This document shows, in pieces, positions 43,640 through 55,603 of a stretch of 64,000 nucleotides of DNA. This DNA is from Gemmatimonadota bacterium (GTDB lineage: Bacteria; Gemmatimonadota; Gemmatimonadetes; JACCXV01; JAHWKZ01). The notes below the pieces were generated by a model. It was not told where the DNA came from and ran no database searches. It saw only the letters and a list, made by a program, of their open reading frames with translations. Position 1 is the stretch's first letter; each line of letters begins with the position of its first letter. The stretch lies in NCBI GenBank assembly GCA_035708865.1, contig DASTFF010000001.1:4333-68332 (forward strand). The letters run 5' to 3'. The translations under genes and the position numbers were made by a program.

Positions 43640-43850
43640 GGGACGGAACGAGAAAGACCCCGCCGCGACGCACCGGAGAGGATTTTTTGACGCCCTCGCT
43701 GATACAGTGGGTATCCTGCTCGCCCGATTCTCGCTTCCTCCTGGGAGGCGTGCGATCGGCAGGCGAAACGAGGATCCCTTCGAGTGCGTGTTGGCTCAAA
43801 AAATGGTCTCCCCGGATCCGCGCGAGCGGGGTCTTTCCCGCCCGTTTCGA
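43640..43850 (-). ncRNA. Candidate structured ncRNA, 6S (SsrS)-like architecture; strand assigned by synteny with zapA
   Basis: 260-nt gap between zapA and ymdB with locally lower GC. A 12-bp perfect long-range complement (gaaagaccccgc at 43652-43663 with gcggggtctttc at 43826-43837) encloses ~162 nt. A nested 8-bp complement follows (ttttttga ~43683-43690 with tcaaaaaa ~43796-43803). This gives a rod-like closing stem with internal loops and a ~105-nt central region, and lies downstream of zapA as ssrS does in E. coli. Confidence 0.35.
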
Positions 43851-49462: not shown

Positions 49463-49846
49463 TCAGCCGCGCTCGATGAGCTCGATCTCGATCCCGTCCG
49501 GATCGCGGATGAAGGCGATCCGGCTCCCCCCCTCGGTGACCCGGTAGGGTCCGCGGGAAAACTCCACGCCGTGCCCCCGCAGCTCTTCACGGGTGGCGTC
49601 GAGGTCCGCGACGCCGAACGCGAAATGGCCGAACTGGTTCCCCAGCTCGTAGTCGCGGCCGTCGTGGTTGAAGGTGAGCTCGAGCGGATGGTTCCCCGTC
49701 TCGTCGACGAGGAAGACGAGCGTGGCGTCGGCCTTCTCTAGCACCGCGCGCCGATCCTCCTTCAGTCCCAGCACCTGCGTGTAGAAACCGACCGCGCGGT
49801 CGAGATCCTTGACGCGGATCATCGTGTGCAGAAGCCGTGTCTTCAT
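49463..49846 (-). CDS. Glyoxalase/VOC-family protein (lactoylglutathione lyase-like)
   Basis: 127 aa with paired beta-alpha-beta-beta-beta modules (MIRVKDLDRAVGFYTQVLGL..HFAFGVADLDA..GIEIELIE). ATG at 49844-49846. Confidence 0.8.
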   Translation of the reverse strand: MKTRLLHTMIRVKDLDRAVGFYTQVLGLKEDRRAVLEKADATLVFLVDETGNHPLELTFNHDGRDYELGNQFGHFAFGVADLDATREELRGHGVEFSRGPYRVTEGGSRIAFIRDPDGIEIELIERG

Positions 49847-49872: not shown

Positions 49873-50748
49873 TCAACGCGGCGCGGGCTCCCGGTGGCGG
49901 CCGCGCCGCTCGCGCCAGGCCCGTACCACGCGCGCCAGGTCGCCACCGGCCTCGACCTCGCGGTTCAGCGCGCGCATGCCGGCCTCGTCGAGCGATCCCT
50001 CCAGCCCCGCCAGGACCCCGCCCACCGCCGGGTGCCGCCCGAGCGTCTCCGAGCGCACCACCGGCGCCGCCTGGTACGGCGGAAAGTAGCGGCGGTCGTC
50101 GGCCAGCACTACGAGGTCCAGCGACTCGATGCGGCCGTCGGTCGAGTTGGCGACCGCGACGTCGATCCGGCGCTCCGCGAGAGCCCGGTACATGAGGCCG
50201 AGGTCGAGCTGGAGGATCCGGCCGAACTCGAATCCGTACGCCTTCGCGAGCCCCGGATACCCGTCCTCGCGCGCCATGAACTCGGGGCCGAAGCCGGCCC
50301 TCATCCGCGCCGCGACCGGGCCCAGGTCGGTGATCGTCGCGAGGTCGAGCGATTCGGCGTCGGCCCGCCGGACGACCAGCGCGAACGTGTTCTGGAAACC
50401 CAGCGGGGGCCCCCACTCCAGCCCCCACCGCTCCGCGTACGCGTCGGCGACCTCCCGGAACGCACGCTCCGGTTCCTGGATCGGAGGCCGCTTTAGGATC
50501 GCGGTCAGGGCCGTCCCCGTGTACTCGGGATAGAGATCGATCCCTCCGTTCACGATCGCGCTGTGACAGACGAACGTCCCCCCCAGGTGAAAGCGCCGCT
50601 CGACCGGGACCCCGCGCGCCTCGAGCTCCTGCGCGAGGATCTCTCCGAGGACGTCCTGCTCGGTGAAGTTTTTCGAGCCGATCACGACCGCGTCCGCCGG
50701 ATGGCAGGCGAGGCCGAGAACGAGCAGGGCGGGGAACGCGCGTCTCAC
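49873..50748 (-). CDS. Quaternary-amine (glycine betaine/choline/ergothioneine-type) ABC transporter substrate-binding protein, OpuAC/OpuBC family
   Basis: Signal peptide (V)RRAFPALLVLGLACHPADA, then OpuAC fold (VIGSKNFTEQDVLGEILAQ..YPEYTG). GTG start overlaps the permease TGA (GTGA). The upstream ~174 codons of the track ORF are rejected. Confidence 0.8.
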   Translation of the reverse strand: MRRAFPALLVLGLACHPADAVVIGSKNFTEQDVLGEILAQELEARGVPVERRFHLGGTFVCHSAIVNGGIDLYPEYTGTALTAILKRPPIQEPERAFREVADAYAERWGLEWGPPLGFQNTFALVVRRADAESLDLATITDLGPVAARMRAGFGPEFMAREDGYPGLAKAYGFEFGRILQLDLGLMYRALAERRIDVAVANSTDGRIESLDLVVLADDRRYFPPYQAAPVVRSETLGRHPAVGGVLAGLEGSLDEAGMRALNREVEAGGDLARVVRAWRERRGRHREPAPR

Positions 50749-51416
50749 GCCGGCCGCCGCTCGACGCGCCGGGTCGCGTGCCCGGCGGGAGTGACGCGGC
50801 GCTCGAGCAGCCCGAGCAGCGCGTCGGCGAAGAGCGCCAGCAGGGCCGCCGGCACCGCGCCCGCCAGGATCACCGTGTCGTTCACCATCGCCAGGCCCTG
50901 GAAGATGTACACGCCGAGCCCCCCCGCCCCGATCGCCGCGGCGATCGTCGCGATACCGACCGAGATCACCGTCGCCACGCGGACGCCGGACAGGATGACC
51001 GGCGCCGCCAGCGGGAGCTCGACCCGGCCCAGGAGCTGTCCGCCGGTCATCCCGAGCCCCAGGCCGGCCTCGCGAACGGCGGGATCCACGCCCCGGATCC
51101 CGGCATGCGTCCCGCGGACGACCGGCAGCAGCGCGTACAGCGTGAGCGCCACGATCGCGGTCCGGGCACCGACCCCGCCGATGAACGGGACCGGGATCAG
51201 GAAGCCGAACAGGGCCAGGCTGGGGATCGTCTGGAGGACGTTGGCGGTTCCCATCACCACCCGCTCCCACCGCTGCCAGCGGGTGGCGGCGATCCCCAGC
51301 GGCACGCCCACCGCGACCGCCACCCCAACCGCCAGCGCGACCATCGTGACGTGCTCGAGGGTCAGTCCCGCGGCCTGGCCGGCGTGGTCGCGCAGGTAGC
51401 GAAGAAGCTCACCCAC
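50745..51416 (-). CDS. Quaternary-amine ABC transporter permease (OpuBB/ProW-like)
   Basis: Binding-protein-dependent permease with EAA-like loop and five TM segments. Confidence 0.85.
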   Translation of the reverse strand: MGELLRYLRDHAGQAAGLTLEHVTMVALAVGVAVAVGVPLGIAATRWQRWERVVMGTANVLQTIPSLALFGFLIPVPFIGGVGARTAIVALTLYALLPVVRGTHAGIRGVDPAVREAGLGLGMTGGQLLGRVELPLAAPVILSGVRVATVISVGIATIAAAIGAGGLGVYIFQGLAMVNDTVILAGAVPAALLALFADALLGLLERRVTPAGHATRRVERRPA

Positions 51417-52170
51417 CCGGACCTCCGCCCAGCGCCTCGACCAGCCCGCGGACTTCGGGGTGGCTCGAGGCCAGGAACTCCGCCGGCGGGGCGATCTCCG
51501 CCAGCCCGTCCTCGGTGAGCAGGCCGACCCGGCCGCCCAGCGCGAGCGCCTCGCGCAGGTCGTGGGTGACGAACAGGGCCGCCTTTTCCAGCCGTTGGAC
51601 GAGCTGCCGGAACTCCTGCTGGAGATCGGCCCTCGTCAGGGGATCCAGGGCGCCGAACGGCTCGTCGAGGAGAAGCAGCGGCGGGTCGGCGGCGAGCGCC
51701 CGGGCCACCCCTACCCGCTGCCGCTGGCCGCCCGAGAGCTCGTGCGGGTAACGCCGGCCGAACTCGCCGGCCGGCAGCCCCACCAGCTCGAGGAGCTCGG
51801 CCGTCCGCTCATCGATCCGGATCCGCTCCCATCCCAGCAGGTCCGGCACCAGACCCACGTTGCCGGCCACCGTGAGGTGCGGGAACAGCCCGACCTCCTG
51901 GATCACGTAACCGGTCCGCCGTCGCAGCGCCACGGGGTCCCAGTCGGTCGTGGGGCGCCCGGCGACGCGGACTACTCCCGCTGCCGGATCGAGGAGCCGG
52001 TTCACCAGCTTGAGGAGGGTCGTCTTGCCGACCCCCGAGCGGCCCACGAGGACAACCGTCTCGTCGGTCCCGACGGCCAGCGTGAGGCCCGCGAACAGGA
52101 CGCGCCCGTCGGGGAGCGAGAACGCCACTTGGTCGAACTCGACCGCCGGGGCCGCGGAGTCCGCCGACAA
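51409..52170 (-). CDS. Quaternary-amine ABC transporter ATP-binding protein (OpuBA/ProV-like)
   Basis: Walker A GRSGVGKTT, signature LSGGQRQRV and Walker B LLLDEP. TTG start at 52168-52170. Confidence 0.9.
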   Translation of the reverse strand: MSADSAAPAVEFDQVAFSLPDGRVLFAGLTLAVGTDETVVLVGRSGVGKTTLLKLVNRLLDPAAGVVRVAGRPTTDWDPVALRRRTGYVIQEVGLFPHLTVAGNVGLVPDLLGWERIRIDERTAELLELVGLPAGEFGRRYPHELSGGQRQRVGVARALAADPPLLLLDEPFGALDPLTRADLQQEFRQLVQRLEKAALFVTHDLREALALGGRVGLLTEDGLAEIAPPAEFLASSHPEVRGLVEALGGGPGG

Positions 52171-52221
52171 CGAAGCGGGTGGGGGGTTCGCGTACGACGA
52201 TGAGCCATGCTGAGCGATCCG

Positions 52222-52229
52222 TTAATATA
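52222..52229 (+). promoter_or_regulatory. Candidate -10 element (TAATAT) 8 nt upstream of the egtDB ATG (leaderless / very short leader)
   Basis: cgttaatatagggccccATG; no SD is present. A divergent 66-bp intergenic region is shared with the ABC transporter operon. Confidence 0.3.
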
Positions 52230-52236
52230 GGGCCCC

Positions 52237-54588
52237 ATGGCGGGCACCACCCGACCGGTCGCCCTCCCGGCGGCCGACCTTCGAGCCCCCGCCTTCGTCG
52301 AACGTGCCGGCGAGGGCTGGGTGGTGTTCGTCGATGCGACGCCCACCACCGCCGAGGCATTCGCCCACTCCGTCGCGCGCGGGCTCTCGGACCATCCCCG
52401 ATGGCTTCATTGCAGGTATCTCTACGACGAAACCGGGGGCGAGCTGTTCGGGCGGATCACCGAGCAGCCCGAATACTACCTGACACGGGCGGAGACCGAG
52501 ATCCTCGCGCGCCAGTCGGACGCGATCCGCGCGGCCGCGGGACCGGTGCCCCTCGTCGAGCTGGGCGCCGGCATGGCGATCAAGACCCGCCATCTGCTCG
52601 CGGCGTGGGACCGGGCCGGTGGGCCGGTCGAGTACGTCCCCGTGGACATCGACGCGTCCGTACTTACCGCGGCCGCCCAACGGCTGGCGGAGGAGTTTCC
52701 GGGGATCACGATCACCGGCCTAGCGACCTCGTACGAGCGCGGCCTGGACCTGATCGAAGGGCGCTCCCCGCTGTGTCTCGTCTTTCTGGGCTCGACGATC
52801 GGCAACTTCAATCCCGAGGAGACCGACGCCTTCCTGACCCGGCTCCGGGATGCCCTTTCGCCCGGGGACCGGCTGCTGCTGGGCGTCGACCTGGTCAAGC
52901 CGGTCGAGGAACTCGAGGCCGCCTACAACGATGCCGCCGGCGTGAGCCGCGAGTTCACCCGCAACCTCTTCCAGCGGATGAACCGGGACCTGGGCACCGC
53001 GATCCCGCTGGAAGCGATCGACCACGTCGCTTACTGGAACGACCGCCTCGAGCGGATCGAGATCTACGCCCAGGCACGGCGCGCCGTGAACGTAGAGCTG
53101 GCCTCGATCCAGCGGCGTTTTCGCATCGCGGCCGGCGAGATGGTCCTCACCGAGATCAGTCGCAAGTATCGGCTCGACGGCGTCGAGTCGGACTTCGCGC
53201 GGTTCGGTTTCAAGCTGGAACAGTCGTTCACCGACTCCGGCAGCCGGTTCGGTCTGCTCCTCTTCCGGCTCATCGATCCCGGCGCACGGCCGGACCAGGT
53301 GACCCGTCTGGCGGCAACGCTGCAGCGGGTACGCCGCCGTACGCTCGAGCTGATCGACGCGCTCGACGACGAGCGGCTCCGGCGGCAGGAGCTTTCGATC
53401 CTGAGCCCGATCGCGTGGGACCTCGGCCACATCGCCGAGTTCGAGGAGCTGTGGCTCGTGGATACGATCGACGCGCTGCTGACCGGCGGCGATCCATCCC
53501 GACTGTCTCCCGAATACGACGCCATCCGGACACCGCGGAGCGAGCGTGGCCATCTCCCGTTTCCCGCGCGGGGGGAGATCCTGGAGCGGCTCGAGCGCGT
53601 CCGGAAGGAGGCCCTGCGCCGGCTGCGCGCCATCGATCTGGCGGGCCATCCGCTCCTCGAACACGGGTTCGTCTACCACCTCCTGGCACAGCACGAGGCG
53701 CAGCACCAGGAGACGTTCCTGCAGGCGATCGCGCGGATGGCGGACCTGGCCTACGAGCCCGCTTTCCGCGAGCCCACCCCGCGCCCCTCGCTCCCGCCCG
53801 ATACCGACATGGTCCTCGTCGGCGAGGGTCCGTTTCCGGTCGGCGCCGCGCGCATCGCGGAGGCCTACGACAACGAGCGGCCGGTGACCCGGGTCGACGT
53901 GGACGCCTTCTGGATCGACGCCGCCCCGGTCACCAACGGCGTCTACCTCGCGTTCATGGAGGCCGGTGGCTACGAGCGCCGCGACGCGTGGAGCGACGAG
54001 GGATGGGCGTGGCGGGAGAAACACGCCGTCCGGTACCCGCTCGGCTGGCGGCGGGACGAGGGCGGCTGGGTCGACGTCCAGTTCGGCCACGTCGAGCCGC
54101 TCGTCCCCGCGCGGCCGGTCCAGCACGTCTCGTGGTACGAGGCCGACGCCTGCGCGCGCTGGCTGGGCAAGCGGCTCCCGACCGAGATCGAGTGGGAGAA
54201 GGCCGCGGCCTGGGATCCCGAGGTCCGGGTCCCGCGGCGCTACCCGTGGGGAGACGCCCAGCCCGACGCGCGCTGCGCCAACCTGGACGCCCGCACGTTC
54301 GCGCCGGCTCCCGTAGGTGCGTATCCGCGCGGCCGATCCTTCTACGGCTGCCATCAGATGCTGGGCGATGTCTGGGAGTGGACGGCGAGCGAGTTCCTTC
54401 CCTATCCCGGCTTCGAGGCGTTCCCCTACCCGGAGTACTCGGAGGCCCACTTCGGCAAGGGGTACCGGGTGCTGCGCGGCGGCTCGTGGGCGACCGCCGC
54501 GATCGTGGCGCGCAACTCGTTCCGTAACTGGGACCTTCCCGAGCGCCGCCAGATCTTTGCCGGGTTCCGCTGCGCCCGGGACGCGTGA
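52237..54588 (+). CDS. egtDB: Fused ergothioneine biosynthesis protein: EgtD-type L-histidine N-alpha-methyltransferase plus EgtB-type sulfoxide synthase (DinB_2 + FGE-sulfatase domains); Egt1-like architecture
   Basis: N-terminal 330 aa carry EgtD/Methyltransf_33 motifs (EYYLTRAETEIL, LVELGAGMAIKTRHLL, YVPVDIDASVL, FLGSTIGNF). C-terminal ~450 aa carry a DinB_2 region with an HLLAQHEAQHQETF iron-binding motif, then an FGE-sulfatase domain (GDVWEWT, RGGSWAT). Confidence 0.85.
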   Translation: MAGTTRPVALPAADLRAPAFVERAGEGWVVFVDATPTTAEAFAHSVARGLSDHPRWLHCRYLYDETGGELFGRITEQPEYYLTRAETEILARQSDAIRAAAGPVPLVELGAGMAIKTRHLLAAWDRAGGPVEYVPVDIDASVLTAAAQRLAEEFPGITITGLATSYERGLDLIEGRSPLCLVFLGSTIGNFNPEETDAFLTRLRDALSPGDRLLLGVDLVKPVEELEAAYNDAAGVSREFTRNLFQRMNRDLGTAIPLEAIDHVAYWNDRLERIEIYAQARRAVNVELASIQRRFRIAAGEMVLTEISRKYRLDGVESDFARFGFKLEQSFTDSGSRFGLLLFRLIDPGARPDQVTRLAATLQRVRRRTLELIDALDDERLRRQELSILSPIAWDLGHIAEFEELWLVDTIDALLTGGDPSRLSPEYDAIRTPRSERGHLPFPARGEILERLERVRKEALRRLRAIDLAGHPLLEHGFVYHLLAQHEAQHQETFLQAIARMADLAYEPAFREPTPRPSLPPDTDMVLVGEGPFPVGAARIAEAYDNERPVTRVDVDAFWIDAAPVTNGVYLAFMEAGGYERRDAWSDEGWAWREKHAVRYPLGWRRDEGGWVDVQFGHVEPLVPARPVQHVSWYEADACARWLGKRLPTEIEWEKAAAWDPEVRVPRRYPWGDAQPDARCANLDARTFAPAPVGAYPRGRSFYGCHQMLGDVWEWTASEFLPYPGFEAFPYPEYSEAHFGKGYRVLRGGSWATAAIVARNSFRNWDLPERRQIFAGFRCARDA

Positions 54589-54589
54589 G

Positions 54590-55603
54590 GTGAGCGGGCC
54601 GGCCGGGCCGGGCGACCTGGCGCGGCGGCTGGCCCGCCTGCCACTGGAGATCGAGAGCCATTCGGTCGAGCTGGGCTCCGTCCCGCTGGCCGGCTACTAC
54701 GACGGCGCCGAGCGCCCGACCGGGGTGGTCGGGATGGCCGGCCGGGGCCACGTCGGCCGCGGGGAAAACGTCGACTGGACACCGGCCGGGCAGGAGCGGT
54801 TCGCGGCCGTCTGCCGGGAGGTGGTCCAGGACGCCCTCCCGGCGGGGCCGACCACGCTGGGGGCGGTCGGTGCGGCGCTCACCCGCTCGCGTGCCCATCC
54901 CCACCACCGGGCGGCCCTCGAGGCGGCGGCCCTCGATCTCGCGCTCCGGCTGGCCGGTCTCGACCTCTTCCAGCTGAGCGGTCGGCAGCCCCGGGCGGTC
55001 CGCACCTGCCGCTCGATCGGCCGGGAGGAGATCGCCCGGGCGGGACCCCTGACCGCGGTCCTGGCCCTTCTCGCCCGCGAGCCGGACGCCCGGGTCAAGA
55101 TCGACGGCCCCGCCGGTGGATGGCCCGAGGACCTGTGGAGACGGCTGGCCGGGACGGGGCGGGTGGTCGTCGTCGACTTCAAGCGCGAGGGGACGGCCGA
55201 GCAGGTCGCGCTCGCCCACCGCTTCCTGCCCGGCGCCTGGATCGAGGACCCGCCCGCCGACCTCCTCGGACAGGCGGGGGCCGGGTCCTGGCTCTCACGC
55301 CTCGCGCTGGACGGGTACGTGGCGGCGGCTTCCGACCTCGACGCGCCGCCGGCCCCGCCGGCCGCCGTCAACGTGAAGCCCGCCCGGGTCGGGGGTCCCT
55401 GCGAGGCGCTGGCGATCCTCGAGCGGTGCCGGAGCTCGGGTTGGAGCGCCTACTTCGGCGGGATGTTCGAGGTCGACGTGGGCCGGCGGCAAGCGCAGGT
55501 CTTGGCTTCGCTGTTCACGGCCGGGGCGTGGAACGATCTGGCCCCGCTCACCGGGCCGTCCGGCCAGGACGGCGTTCCGGCCGGGGGGCCGGGGTTCGGC
55601 TGA
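54590..55603 (+). CDS. Enolase-superfamily enzyme, MLE subgroup (OSBS/dipeptide-epimerase/NSAR-like)
   Basis: Metal ligands and base in canonical order: VKIDGPAGGW (D), WIEDP (E), LALDGY (D), AAVNVKPARVGG (K). GTG start 2 nt after the egtDB TGA. The first 91 codons of track ORF 54317..55603 overlap egtDB and are rejected. Confidence 0.7.
   Translation: MSGPAGPGDLARRLARLPLEIESHSVELGSVPLAGYYDGAERPTGVVGMAGRGHVGRGENVDWTPAGQERFAAVCREVVQDALPAGPTTLGAVGAALTRSRAHPHHRAALEAAALDLALRLAGLDLFQLSGRQPRAVRTCRSIGREEIARAGPLTAVLALLAREPDARVKIDGPAGGWPEDLWRRLAGTGRVVVVDFKREGTAEQVALAHRFLPGAWIEDPPADLLGQAGAGSWLSRLALDGYVAAASDLDAPPAPPAAVNVKPARVGGPCEALAILERCRSSGWSAYFGGMFEVDVGRRQAQVLASLFTAGAWNDLAPLTGPSGQDGVPAGGPGFG

What the first reader, a model, noticed from the sequence alone, without database searches (positions are those of the whole stretch)
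49873..52236. OpuB/EgtUV-type quaternary-amine ABC transporter divergent from egtDB
A three-gene ProU/OpuB-family transporter (ATPase, permease, OpuAC-type binding protein, coupled through GTGA and a 7-bp overlap) starts 66 bp from the egtDB start on the opposite strand. The two share one short promoter region with a TAATAT box. Recently described ergothioneine importers (EgtUV) belong to this same transporter family. A betaine-type transporter back-to-back with a hercynine/ergothioneine synthase suggests a co-regulated uptake or export function for histidine betaines rather than a generic osmoprotectant system.
Basis: inference. Interest (0 to 1): 0.55.

Follow-up and report, generated by a model that had tools for sequence, protein, structure and literature searches.

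The report
Betaine-type importer wired to ergothioneine synthesis
A three-gene nutrient importer of the betaine-transporter family sits back-to-back with the ergothioneine-synthesis gene in this soil bacterium; the pairing recurs in several phyla and the binding pocket is altered in a conserved way, so it most likely takes up ergothioneine or its precursor hercynine, not ordinary osmoprotectants.

Summary
On the minus strand lie an ABC ATPase (52170-51409), one permease (51416-50745) and an OpuAC-family lipoprotein binding protein (50748-49873). They are 66 bp from a fused egtD-egtB gene on the other strand. The host is a Gemmatimonadota bacterium.

The binding protein is not an EgtU. It lacks both ergothioneine determinants of S. 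pneumoniae EgtU (Gly244; Phe293/Tyr337 switch), and the binding protein is not fused to the permease. It is not a classical glycine-betaine or choline binder either. It keeps the carboxylate clamp (K26/T79/R160). One side of the aromatic cage is remodelled (F122, L183, N201 in place of Tyr, Pro, Tyr).

This signature defines a monophyletic "type A" subfamily in Gemmatimonadota, Acidobacteriota, Cyanobacteria and Binatota. EgtD lies in 23 of 74 type A loci, with three different gene arrangements, and in 0 of 11 loci of the sister subfamily. A separate related lineage in Rhizobium sits next to a probable ergothionase.

Best reading (about 0.55): an importer for histidine betaines (ergothioneine and/or hercynine), co-controlled with their synthesis and used for salvage or scavenging. 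The substrate is inferred, not shown. I found no paper describing this linkage. I rate it a new variant of a known kind, of moderate interest.

The parts
51409..52170 (-). ABC ATPase, 253 aa, TTG start; ProV/OpuCA-like nucleotide-binding domain without the C-terminal CBS domains
   Evidence: PF00005 at 112.9 bits. TIGR01186 proV subfamily at 229.8 bits, below the 326.6 cutoff, matching profile positions 13-220 of 363. No CBS domain, like Listeria BilEA and unlike Listeria OpuCA.
50745..51416 (-). Single permease, 223 aa, GTG start; overlaps the ATPase stop by 8 bp
   Evidence: PF00528 at 74.8 bits. Coordinates and overlap checked. 68-90% identical in orthologous loci.
49873..50748 (-). OpuAC-family substrate-binding lipoprotein, 291 aa, GTG start in a GTGA overlap with the permease stop. 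'Type A' pocket: K26 N27 F28 T29 E30, G57 T58, Y76 T79, F118 N120 F122, E156 R160, L183, N201, Y225
   Evidence: PF04069 at 196 bits. PDB hits 1e-42 to 5e-55. Pocket columns. Cys15 is invariant. All 120 closest homologues carry type A residues at these columns, with conservative substitutions at five of them.
52171..52236 (.). 66-bp divergent control region between the ATPase and egtDB starts
   Evidence: The spacer is 24-72 bp in seven orthologous loci.
52223..52231 (.). Conserved AT-rich box TAATATAGG (+) / CCTATATTA (-); a -10-like element 5-6 nt upstream of the egtDB ATG
   Evidence: Invariant in 8/8 loci. Unique in the window, 0 expected by chance. Promoter function is inferred.
52237..54588 (+). 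Fused egtD-egtB gene, 783 aa: histidine N-alpha-methyltransferase plus sulfoxide synthase
   Evidence: PF10017, PF12867 and PF03781. TIGR03438 at 309 bits (cutoff 290.9) and TIGR03440 at 384 bits (cutoff 360).
49463..49846 (-). Glyoxalase-I-like VOC protein, 127 aa, 26 bp downstream of the binding-protein gene; probably co-transcribed
   Evidence: PF00903 at 91.8 bits. Below the NCBIfam glyoxalase I cutoffs. Present after the binding-protein gene in 7 of 7 assessable fusion-type loci.
54590..55603 (+). Divergent enolase-superfamily protein (DUF8230 in related contigs); GTG start 1 nt after the egtDB stop
   Evidence: PF26684/PF26685 are listed for the orthologues. Best PDB matches are N-acylamino acid racemase / o-succinylbenzoate synthase, 2zc8 at E = 2.3e-7. 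Present in 6 of 8 related fusion-type loci.

Best explanation
This is a binding-protein-dependent ABC importer: a homodimeric single permease, an ATPase without osmosensing CBS domains, and a lipid-anchored periplasmic binding protein. It belongs to a distinct 'type A' branch of the AfProX/EgtU group of OpuAC-family proteins.

Its most likely ligands are histidine betaines: ergothioneine and/or its sulfur-free precursor and oxidation product, hercynine.

Proposed mechanism:
1. The binding protein captures the betaine. A Lys26/Thr79/Arg160 clamp holds the carboxylate. A three-sided aromatic cage (Tyr76, Phe122, Tyr225, plus Asn120) holds the trimethylammonium.
2. The fourth cage wall is replaced by small or aliphatic residues (Asn201, Leu183). 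This reshapes the part of the pocket that meets the imidazole/thione side chain in EgtU.
3. The transporter is expressed divergently from the same 66-bp region as egtDB.
4. The cell therefore makes ergothioneine and also recaptures or scavenges ergothioneine or hercynine. Imported hercynine can feed straight into the EgtB half of the fusion enzyme.

Shown here: gene content, pocket residues, conserved linkage, and the subfamily-specific pocket change.

Inferred: the ligand, co-regulation, and the physiological role.
For: 1. Family and direction. PF00005, PF00528 and PF04069 are present. The lipoprotein Cys15 is invariant.

2. Linkage in the close clade. egtDB is adjacent in L001-L005 and L008-L010 at 60-81% binding-protein identity. 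In L002 egtDB has moved to the other side of the operon yet stays adjacent. The outer flanks differ between loci.

3. Linkage beyond the clade. In a scan of species-representative genomes, 23 of 74 type A loci carry EgtD: Gemmatimonadota 11/13, Acidobacteriota 8/33, Binatota 2/2, one Clostridia MAG, one cyanobacterium. In 21 of the 23, the egt gene lies immediately upstream of the ATPase gene (20 of them divergent). Three arrangements occur: the D-B fusion, D alone, and a B-then-D operon. The EgtD homologues reach the TIGR03438 cutoff in six of seven tested; L071 is marginally below at 289.9.

4. The sister 'type B' subfamily has 0 of 11 loci with EgtD (Fisher P = 0.03). Type A is monophyletic in 80% of bootstraps.

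5. Only 6 of about 282 alignment columns are fixed-different between types A and B. Three of them are known ligand-contact positions (EgtU 341, 401, 419). My hand hypergeometric estimate is P about 0.003.

6. The carboxylate clamp and Glu156 are invariant. Glu156 aligns with EgtU Glu375, which hydrogen-bonds the imidazole.

7. Ergothioneine binding occurs repeatedly in this protein group. It is shown for S. pneumoniae, Listeria and other Firmicute EgtU (PMC9732360). H. pylori EgtU binds it without Gly244 or the Tyr-to-Phe switch.

8. A further lineage in Rhizobium (45% identical, also small at column 419) lies next to a HutC-type repressor and a lyase. The lyase fails the hutH cutoff, lacks the Ala-Ser-Gly MIO motif, best matches T. 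denticola ergothionase (6s7j), and keeps the Lys aligned with Lys384 (criteria from bioRxiv 10.1101/2025.08.13.670108).

9. Some cyanobacterial type A operons are followed by a phytochelatin-synthase-like gene, with gamma-glutamyltranspeptidase nearby. This is a thiol-metabolism context.

10. The ATPase has no CBS domain, like Listeria BilEA and unlike OpuCA.
Against: - No binding or transport data exist for any type A protein.
- The pocket lacks the residues shown to matter for tight ergothioneine binding in SpEgtU. Gly244 is replaced by Phe28, as in the glycine-betaine binder AfProX. The Phe293/Tyr337 switch is absent. The thione contacts Ile243, Thr274 and Pro401 are replaced by Asn, Gly and Leu.
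- By residue count the nearest characterised pocket is AfProX, at 11/17 columns.
- Two thirds of type A loci, including nearly all cyanobacterial ones, have no egt gene within 10 kb.
- I could not test whether those genomes encode EgtD elsewhere.
- The Rhizobium lineage is not sister to type A, so its context transfers only weakly.
- Much of the within-phylum linkage may be inherited, not independently gained.
- Co-regulation rests only on a shared short spacer and a conserved box.
Confidence: 0.55

Rival explanations
1. It is a general compatible-solute importer for glycine betaine, proline betaine or similar. It sits next to egtDB only because both belong to a stress regulon, or because imported betaines support methyl-group supply for EgtD.
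For: All public annotations call it a glycine betaine or osmoprotectant binding protein. The pocket is closest by count to AfProX (11/17 columns). That includes Phe at the EgtU Gly244 position and the full K/T/R carboxylate clamp. Most type A loci are not next to egt genes. A published suggestion links ergothioneine production to osmotic pressure (PMC12689799).
Against: Two of AfProX's four cage tyrosines are replaced (Tyr111 to Phe, Tyr190 to Asn). These replacements are fixed across four phyla, while the unlinked sister subfamily keeps Tyr/Pro/Phe. The ATPase lacks the CBS osmosensing module. The protein fails the OsmF equivalog (141 bits, cutoff 400). A chance or regulon-only adjacency would not be expected to recur directly at the ATPase start in three phyla with three gene orders.
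Confidence: 0.2
2. It imports L-histidine or partly methylated histidine, the substrate of EgtD, so that synthesis does not drain the cellular histidine pool. The Tyr-to-Asn change provides a hydrogen-bond acceptor for an N-H ammonium group.
For: EgtD is the one gene common to all 23 linked loci, and several have EgtD without EgtB nearby. Column 419 holds small polar residues (Asn, Ser, Asp). From my own knowledge, not tested here: ProU-family histidine importers (HutXWV/HisXVW) exist in Pseudomonas and Sinorhizobium.
Against: Three aromatic cage residues plus Asn120 are retained, which is typical of quaternary ammonium recognition. Every characterised relative in this group binds quaternary amines, and SpEgtU binds L-histidine only very weakly. 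The S. meliloti and Rhizobium homologues I inspected were not in genuine histidine-utilisation clusters.
Confidence: 0.1
3. It exports ergothioneine or hercynine made by EgtDB. This is the second option the first reader offered.
For: No ergothioneine exporter is known in any organism (PMC12689799), and biosynthetic clusters often carry exporters.
Against: The system has the full importer anatomy: a PF00528 permease, an extracytoplasmic PF04069 binding protein with an invariant lipoprotein cysteine, and translational coupling of the three genes. From established knowledge, type I binding-protein-dependent ABC systems are importers.
Confidence: 0.03

Closest known systems
EgtUV / EgtU (S. pneumoniae SPD_1642-1643, Listeria BilEAB; PDB 7TXK, 7TXL, 4Z7E), the ergothioneine-specific ABC importer
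   Same: Same binding-protein family and subcluster (E about 1e-42). One ATPase without CBS domains (shown here for Listeria BilEA) and one permease type. Carboxylate clamp Lys242/Thr296/Arg379, Glu375, Asn339 and Tyr443 are conserved. Linked to ergothioneine biology.
   Different: The binding protein is a separate lipoprotein, not fused to the permease. Only 8/17 pocket columns are shared. Gly244 is Phe, Phe293 is Tyr, Tyr337 is Phe, Tyr341 is Phe, Pro401 is Leu, Tyr419 is Asn and Ile243 is Asn. It is found in ergothioneine producers next to the biosynthetic gene; EgtU was characterised in S. pneumoniae and H. pylori, which take ergothioneine up from outside. Ligand untested.
Helicobacter pylori EgtU binding domain (PDB 8DP6, 8DP7)
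   Same: 10/17 pocket columns are shared, including Gly at 274, Tyr at 293 and Phe at 337. This shows that ergothioneine can be bound (Ka about 5e5 per M) without the S. pneumoniae signature. After masking residues shared with other references, it is the best remaining PDB match to the window protein.
   Different: H. pylori has Pro, Ser, Tyr, Ile and Phe at columns 243, 244, 341, 401 and 419. The window protein has Asn, Phe, Phe, Leu and Asn. The H. pylori protein is a fusion in a non-producer.
Archaeoglobus fulgidus ProX (PDB 1SW1, 1SW2), a glycine betaine / proline betaine binding protein
   Same: The highest pocket identity, 11/17 columns. Shared residues include Lys13, Phe at the 244 column, Tyr63, Thr66, Phe107, Arg149 and Tyr214. 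Also a separate binding protein with a single-permease system.
   Different: Cage Tyr111 is Phe and Tyr190 is Asn. Asp109 is Asn. Pro at the 401 column is Leu.
Bacillus subtilis OpuCC / OpuBC (PDB 3PPN, 3R6U)
   Same: Same family, with similar E-values (1e-45 to 1e-48).
   Different: 8/17 and 5/17 pocket columns shared. Those systems have two permeases, CBS-bearing ATPases (shown here for the Listeria OpuC homologue) and Gln in place of the clamp Lys.
Compatible-solute synthesis genes paired with a salvage importer (for example ectoine with TeaABC or EhuABCD)
   Same: The same logic: a cell that makes a zwitterionic solute also encodes a binding-protein-dependent importer that can recapture it. 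This is from my own knowledge; PMC13342039 turned up but I did not read it.
   Different: A different transporter family and a different solute. Here the pairing is a divergent gene pair with a histidine-betaine pathway.

Membership tests
OpuAC-family binding-protein-dependent ABC importer (ProU/OpuB/OpuC/OpuF/EgtU group) | ABC ATPase, PF00528 permease and PF04069 binding protein encoded together | tested here: met
   PF00005 at 112.9 bits, PF00528 at 74.8 bits, PF04069 at 196 bits. The genes overlap by 8 and 4 bp.
OpuAC-family binding-protein-dependent ABC importer (ProU/OpuB/OpuC/OpuF/EgtU group) | Aromatic cage for a quaternary ammonium head group | tested here: inconclusive
   Three of four aromatic positions are kept (Y76, F122, Y225), plus N120. 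The fourth is Asn201. From my own knowledge, three-sided cages work in other betaine binders, but this was not tested here.
Osmoregulated OpuA/OpuC/ProU type | Tandem CBS domains at the C-terminus of the ATPase | tested here: not met
   The ATPase is 253 aa and has only PF00005. Listeria OpuCA shows CBS in the same test.
EgtU (ergothioneine-specific importer, S. pneumoniae type) | Invariant Gly244, which leaves room for the water network around the thione-imidazole ring | tested here: not met
   Phe28 in the window protein and in 120/120 homologues. Criterion.
EgtU (ergothioneine-specific importer, S. pneumoniae type) | Tyr-to-Phe switch (Phe293 together with Tyr337) | tested here: not met
   Tyr76 and Phe118, the AfProX arrangement.
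EgtU (ergothioneine-specific importer, S. pneumoniae type) | Carboxylate clamp Lys242/Thr296/Arg379 and Glu375 | tested here: met
   K26, T79, R160 and E156. K26, R160 and E156 are invariant in all 120 homologues; T79 is Thr in 119 of 120 (one Ser).
EgtU (ergothioneine-specific importer, S. pneumoniae type) | Thione-contacting alkyl residues Ile243, Thr274 and Pro401 | tested here: not met
   Asn27, Gly57 and Leu183. H. pylori EgtU also differs here (Pro, Gly, Ile) and still binds ergothioneine.
EgtU (ergothioneine-specific importer, S. pneumoniae type) | Permease fused to the binding domain | tested here: not met
   Separate genes with a GTGA overlap. A fused form exists in one cyanobacterial type A locus, L053.
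EgtU (ergothioneine-specific importer, S. pneumoniae type) | High-affinity, selective binding of ergothioneine | not testable with these tools
   Needs calorimetry or fluorescence titration with the purified protein.
AfProX-type glycine betaine / proline betaine binding protein | Four-tyrosine cage (Tyr63, Tyr111, Tyr190, Tyr214) | tested here: not met
   The window protein has Tyr, Phe, Asn and Tyr at these positions.
OpuBC-type choline binding protein | No carboxylate clamp (Gln, Asp and Leu at columns 242, 296 and 379) | tested here: not met
   The window protein has Lys, Thr and Arg.
OsmF/YehZ glycine betaine binding protein (NCBIfam NF049931) | Score at or above the curated cutoff of 400 bits | tested here: not met
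   141.4 bits.

The most novel reading that the evidence does not exclude
Type A proteins form a widespread, uncharacterised class of histidine-betaine importers in ergothioneine-producing phyla (Gemmatimonadota, Acidobacteriota, Cyanobacteria, Binatota). Their remodelled three-aromatic cage would make them prefer hercynine, which is both the EgtD product and the sulfur-free end product of ergothioneine oxidation. Paired with EgtB, the importer would close a recycling loop: spent ergothioneine is recaptured as hercynine and re-thiolated without spending three S-adenosylmethionine molecules.
Probability: 0.2. Interest if true: 0.75.

Novelty: new variant of a known kind. Interest (0 to 1): 0.58.

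Why it matters
Ergothioneine transport is known in bacteria only from EgtU, which was characterised in species that take the compound up from outside. It is not known how producers retain, recapture or exchange ergothioneine and hercynine, and no exporter is known. A separate importer class, hard-wired to egtD in soil and aquatic phyla, would give a handle on ergothioneine cycling in the environment. It would offer a second structural solution for recognising histidine betaines. It would also correct a large set of 'glycine betaine transporter' annotations. The prediction can be tested with one recombinant protein and a few ligands.

Tried and rejected
- **EgtU membership.** Rejected on residues and architecture.
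- **Choline specificity.** Rejected, because the carboxylate clamp is present.
- **Riboswitch or other RNA element in the spacer or leader.** Rfam at gathering threshold finds nothing between 44 and 64 kb. The spacer is too short for one anyway.
- **Full sigma-70 promoter.** The consensus scan finds no -35/-10 pair in the spacer. Only the conserved -10-like box supports a promoter.
- **Genuine histidine-utilisation context.** I looked for it around the S. meliloti homologues. L088 lies next to a mandelate-racemase-family enzyme and L089 among sugar genes, so neither is a hut cluster. The Rhizobium 'hutH' turned out to be ergothionase-like.
- **Gemmatirosa plasmid paralogue** (48% identical). 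It has an AfProX-like pocket and no egt genes within 9 kb.
- **All-against-all clustering of neighbouring ORFs.** Spurious antisense ORFs in high-GC DNA made it too noisy for statistics. It only pointed to lineage-specific synteny, such as F420 biosynthesis genes in one acidobacterial clade.
- **Papers.** The Cell 2022 paper on H. pylori EgtU is not held. The H. pylori and AfProX sequences were recovered by a masked-query search of the PDB instead.
- **First bootstrap run.** It timed out and was repeated with a faster distance method.
- **Structure prediction.** Not run. The tools return no coordinates, so pocket geometry could not have been measured.
Full report
**1. What is there**

The window has about 71% G+C. 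The closest homologues of the binding protein (60-92% identity) all come from Gemmatimonadota metagenome bins.

Three translationally coupled genes lie on the minus strand:
- An ABC ATPase, 52170-51409, TTG start, 253 aa.
- One permease, 51416-50745, 223 aa.
- An OpuAC-family binding protein, 50748-49873, 291 aa.

Pfam confirms PF00005, PF00528 and PF04069. The ATPase stop and the permease start overlap by 8 bp. The permease stop and the binding-protein start share GTGA.

The binding protein begins with a signal peptide ending in a cysteine. That cysteine is invariant in 15 aligned homologues. It is therefore an extracytoplasmic lipoprotein.

A glyoxalase-I-like gene follows 26 bp downstream.

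On the other strand, 66 bp from the ATPase start, begins a 783-aa protein. It passes the curated NCBIfam cutoffs for both EgtD and EgtB. A divergent enolase-superfamily gene starts one base after its stop.

**2. The control region**

I aligned the spacer from the window with seven orthologous loci. One element is invariant: CCTATATTA, which reads TAATATAGG on the egtDB strand. It lies 5-6 nt from the egtDB ATG. The rest of the spacer, and its length (24-72 bp), vary.

The 9-mer is unique in the window, and none is expected by chance.

Its fixed distance to the egtDB start suggests a -10 element for a leaderless or nearly leaderless egtDB transcript. The same AT-rich block reads TATATT toward the transporter.

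No -35 match is found and no Rfam family matches here. Promoter function and co-regulation remain inferences.

**3. What kind of binding protein**

Against solved structures, the protein matches many betaine-family binders about equally well:
- Thermoanaerobacter OpuBC-derived sensors: 1e-52 to 5e-55.
- OpuCC: 2e-48.
- H. pylori EgtU (8DP6): 4e-48.
- AfProX: 5e-46.
- S. pneumoniae EgtU: about 1e-42.

Whole-sequence similarity therefore does not decide specificity.

I recovered reference sequences from PDB alignments. I then compared the 17 ligand-pocket columns defined for EgtU.

| Protein | Pocket residues | Columns shared with window |
|---|---|---|
| Window | K26 N27 F28 T29 E30 / G57 T58 / Y76 T79 / F118 N120 F122 / E156 R160 / L183 / N201 / Y225 | - |
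| SpEgtU | K I G P E / T T / F T / Y N Y / E R / P / Y / Y | 8 of 17 |
| H. pylori EgtU | K P S S E / G T / Y T / F N Y / D R / I / F / Y | 10 of 17 |
| AfProX | K P F N E / G T / Y T / F D Y / E R / P / Y / Y | 11 of 17 |
| OpuCC | | 8 of 17 |
| OpuBC | | 5 of 17 |

What the pocket shows:
- The carboxylate clamp is present, which argues against choline.
- It lacks Gly244 and the Phe293/Tyr337 switch, the determinants stressed for S. pneumoniae EgtU.
- It replaces two of AfProX's four cage tyrosines.
- All 120 closest homologues carry type A residues at these columns, with only conservative substitutions (N27D in 7, T29V/I in 44, and single T58S, T79S and N201D changes).
- H. pylori EgtU binds ergothioneine without the S. 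pneumoniae determinants. Failing that signature does not exclude ergothioneine as the ligand.

**4. Genome context in the close clade**

Five contigs carry homologues at 60-75% identity. All have an egtD-egtB fusion adjacent to the ATPase-permease-binding-protein genes, and all have the glyoxalase-like gene.

In one of them (L002) the fusion gene has moved from upstream of the ATPase to downstream of the binding protein. It is still adjacent.

The outer flanks differ between loci. Some have infC-rpmI-rplT-pheST. Others have thrS or glycosyltransferase genes.

**5. Context across phyla**

A scan of species-representative genomes returned 80 loci at 45-81% identity. They come from Gemmatimonadota, Acidobacteriota, Cyanobacteria, Binatota, Desulfobacterota, Planctomycetota and others.

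Two pocket types appear among them:
- Type A has Phe/Leu/Asn (rarely Ser or Asp) at columns 341/401/419.
- Type B has Tyr/Pro/Phe (one locus has Ser at column 401).

Type A is monophyletic in 80% of bootstraps and type B in 87%.

Using tblastn with the window's EgtD and EgtB halves, egt genes are present in 23 of 74 type A loci and in 0 of 11 type B loci (Fisher P = 0.03).

| Phylum (type A) | Loci with EgtD |
|---|---|
| Gemmatimonadota | 11 of 13 |
| Acidobacteriota | 8 of 33 |
| Binatota | 2 of 2 |
| Clostridia-labelled MAG | 1 of 1 |
| Cyanobacteria | 1 of 22 (5 kb away) |

In 21 of the 23 linked loci, the egt gene lies immediately upstream of the ATPase gene; in 20 of these it is divergent, and in L050 it is on the same strand.

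Three arrangements occur:
- The D-B fusion.
- EgtD alone, in three Gemmatimonadales species and in Binatota.
- A separate egtB-then-egtD operon, in Acidobacteriota.

The EgtD homologues reach the curated EgtD cutoff in six of seven tested; the seventh (L071, 289.9 bits) falls just below it. The acidobacterial sulfoxide synthases fall below both the EgtB and OvoA cutoffs.

EgtD is a single-copy gene. Chance adjacency to a given operon should be well under 1% per genome (my inference). The linked loci are spread over at least five subclades of type A.

**6. The pocket change tracks the split**

Only six alignment columns are fixed-different between types A and B. They are window positions 122, 154, 183, 201, 210 and 221.

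Three of them (EgtU 341, 401, 419) are ligand contacts in the EgtU structure. A fourth lies two residues from Glu375. My hand hypergeometric estimate for three of six falling in the 17 pocket columns is about 0.003.

This is what a change of ligand would look like, as opposed to drift.

**7. An independent lineage next to a catabolic gene**

The closest plasmid-borne homologues are in Rhizobium (44-45% identity). There the binding-protein gene directly follows a HutC-type repressor and a gene annotated hutH.

That 'hutH' differs from a genuine histidine ammonia-lyase in four ways:
- It fails the hutH equivalog (387 bits, cutoff 539).
- It lacks the Ala-Ser-Gly motif that forms the MIO cofactor.
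- Its best PDB match is Treponema denticola ergothionase, ahead of all histidine ammonia-lyases.
- It keeps the lysine aligned with ergothionase Lys384. Histidine ammonia-lyases have Val or Tyr there. The hercynine lyase of Shewanella woodyi has Asn (bioRxiv 10.1101/2025.08.13.670108).

The lyase-binding-protein adjacency holds in every Rhizobium record listed in both result tables that I compared.

The Rhizobium pocket shares K-N-F-T-E, Leu at column 401 and a small residue (Ala) at column 419. However, this lineage is not sister to type A. It therefore counts as a parallel case, not as direct evidence.

**8. Other context**

- In four cyanobacterial loci the operon is followed by a phytochelatin-synthase-like gene.
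- In six cyanobacterial loci a gamma-glutamyltranspeptidase lies within about 0.4-10 kb.
- In L053 the permease and binding protein are fused. Two MscS-type channel genes lie between the transporter and egtD/egtB.
- Zhang et al. noted an 'Acidobacteria, Cyanobacteria' subcluster whose specificity they judged distinct from EgtU and unknown. It may correspond to type A, but I could not verify this.

**9. Interpretation**

The anatomy makes this an importer. The pocket says the ligand is a carboxylate-bearing quaternary ammonium compound, and that it is recognised differently from glycine betaine in AfProX and from ergothioneine in EgtU.

The context points at histidine betaines: EgtD in three or more phyla, a probable ergothionase in a parallel lineage, and thiol genes in cyanobacteria.

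I therefore favour an ergothioneine and/or hercynine importer that serves salvage or scavenging and shares a control region with egtDB (confidence about 0.55).

Hercynine deserves particular attention for three reasons:
- EgtD is the common partner in all linked loci.
- The thione-contact residues of EgtU are not conserved.
- Hercynine is both the substrate of EgtB and a product of ergothioneine oxidation.

Rivals:
- A general betaine importer (0.2).
- A histidine or methyl-histidine importer (0.1).
- An exporter (0.03).

**10. Novelty**

Across the nine literature searches that ran, none returned a paper that links an OpuAC-type transporter to egtD/egtB clusters or that characterises type A proteins. 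Public annotations call them glycine betaine or osmoprotectant binding proteins.

I rate this a new variant of a known kind, of moderate interest. The conclusion rests on comparative genomics and residue analysis only.

Noticed in passing
window 52237-54588 (+); also L001-L005, L008-L010: EgtD and EgtB are fused into one 756-788-aa protein, in the same domain order as fungal Egt1. The fusion is conserved across this Gemmatimonadota clade. Other Gemmatimonadales, Acidobacteriota and cyanobacteria in the scan have separate genes.
   Followed up: partly
window 54590-55603 (+): A divergent enolase-superfamily gene (DUF8230 in related contigs) starts 1 nt after the egtDB stop. Its best PDB matches are N-acylamino acid racemase / o-succinylbenzoate synthase (E = 2e-7). 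It is kept in 6 of 8 related loci. It could act on a histidine betaine, by analogy with proline-betaine racemases; that analogy is from my own knowledge. No function is known.
   Followed up: partly
window 49463-49846 (-): A glyoxalase-I-like VOC protein follows the binding-protein gene by 26 bp. It scores below the curated glyoxalase I cutoffs. It follows the binding-protein gene directly in six of the seven assessable fusion-type loci and, in the rearranged L002, sits just beyond egtDB. Its thiol cofactor in this phylum is unknown.
   Followed up: partly
window 52223-52237: The conserved box lies only 5-6 nt from the egtDB ATG in all eight loci. This implies that egtDB is translated from a leaderless or nearly leaderless mRNA.
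   Followed up: partly
L090 6312-8819 (Rhizobium ruizarguesonis pRlX2) and more than 30 other Rhizobium replicons: A gene annotated hutH lacks the MIO motif, best matches ergothionase and keeps its thiolate-binding lysine. It lies between a HutC-type repressor and an OpuAC-family binding protein. This is probably a misannotated ergothioneine-utilisation cluster.
   Followed up: partly
L046 10951-11694 and 13327-15126; also L013, L019, L064, L066, L067: In some cyanobacteria the type A transporter operon is followed by a phytochelatin-synthase-like gene, with a gamma-glutamyltranspeptidase nearby.
   Followed up: partly
L053 9305-17867: In this Nostocales locus the permease and binding protein are fused (504 aa), as in EgtU. 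Two MscS-type mechanosensitive channel genes lie between the transporter and egtD/egtB.
   Followed up: no
L088 6911-10062 (Sinorhizobium meliloti megaplasmid): A 40%-identical binding protein with Gln at the 419 column lies next to a mandelate-racemase-family enzyme and an Ldh-family oxidoreductase. This is probably a catabolic cluster for a different betaine.
   Followed up: no
window 43653-43835 (-): A 6S RNA gene (Rfam RF00013, 56.3 bits, above the gathering score) lies just downstream of pheT.
   Followed up: no
L011 6603-8301; also L012, L015: Three Gemmatimonadales species have EgtD alone next to the transporter. DUF72 follows EgtD in L011 and L015; in L012 the contig ends within EgtD. 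No EgtB-like gene lies within the 9.6-20.8 kb fetched for each. They may stop at hercynine or keep the sulfur-transfer genes elsewhere.
   Followed up: partly
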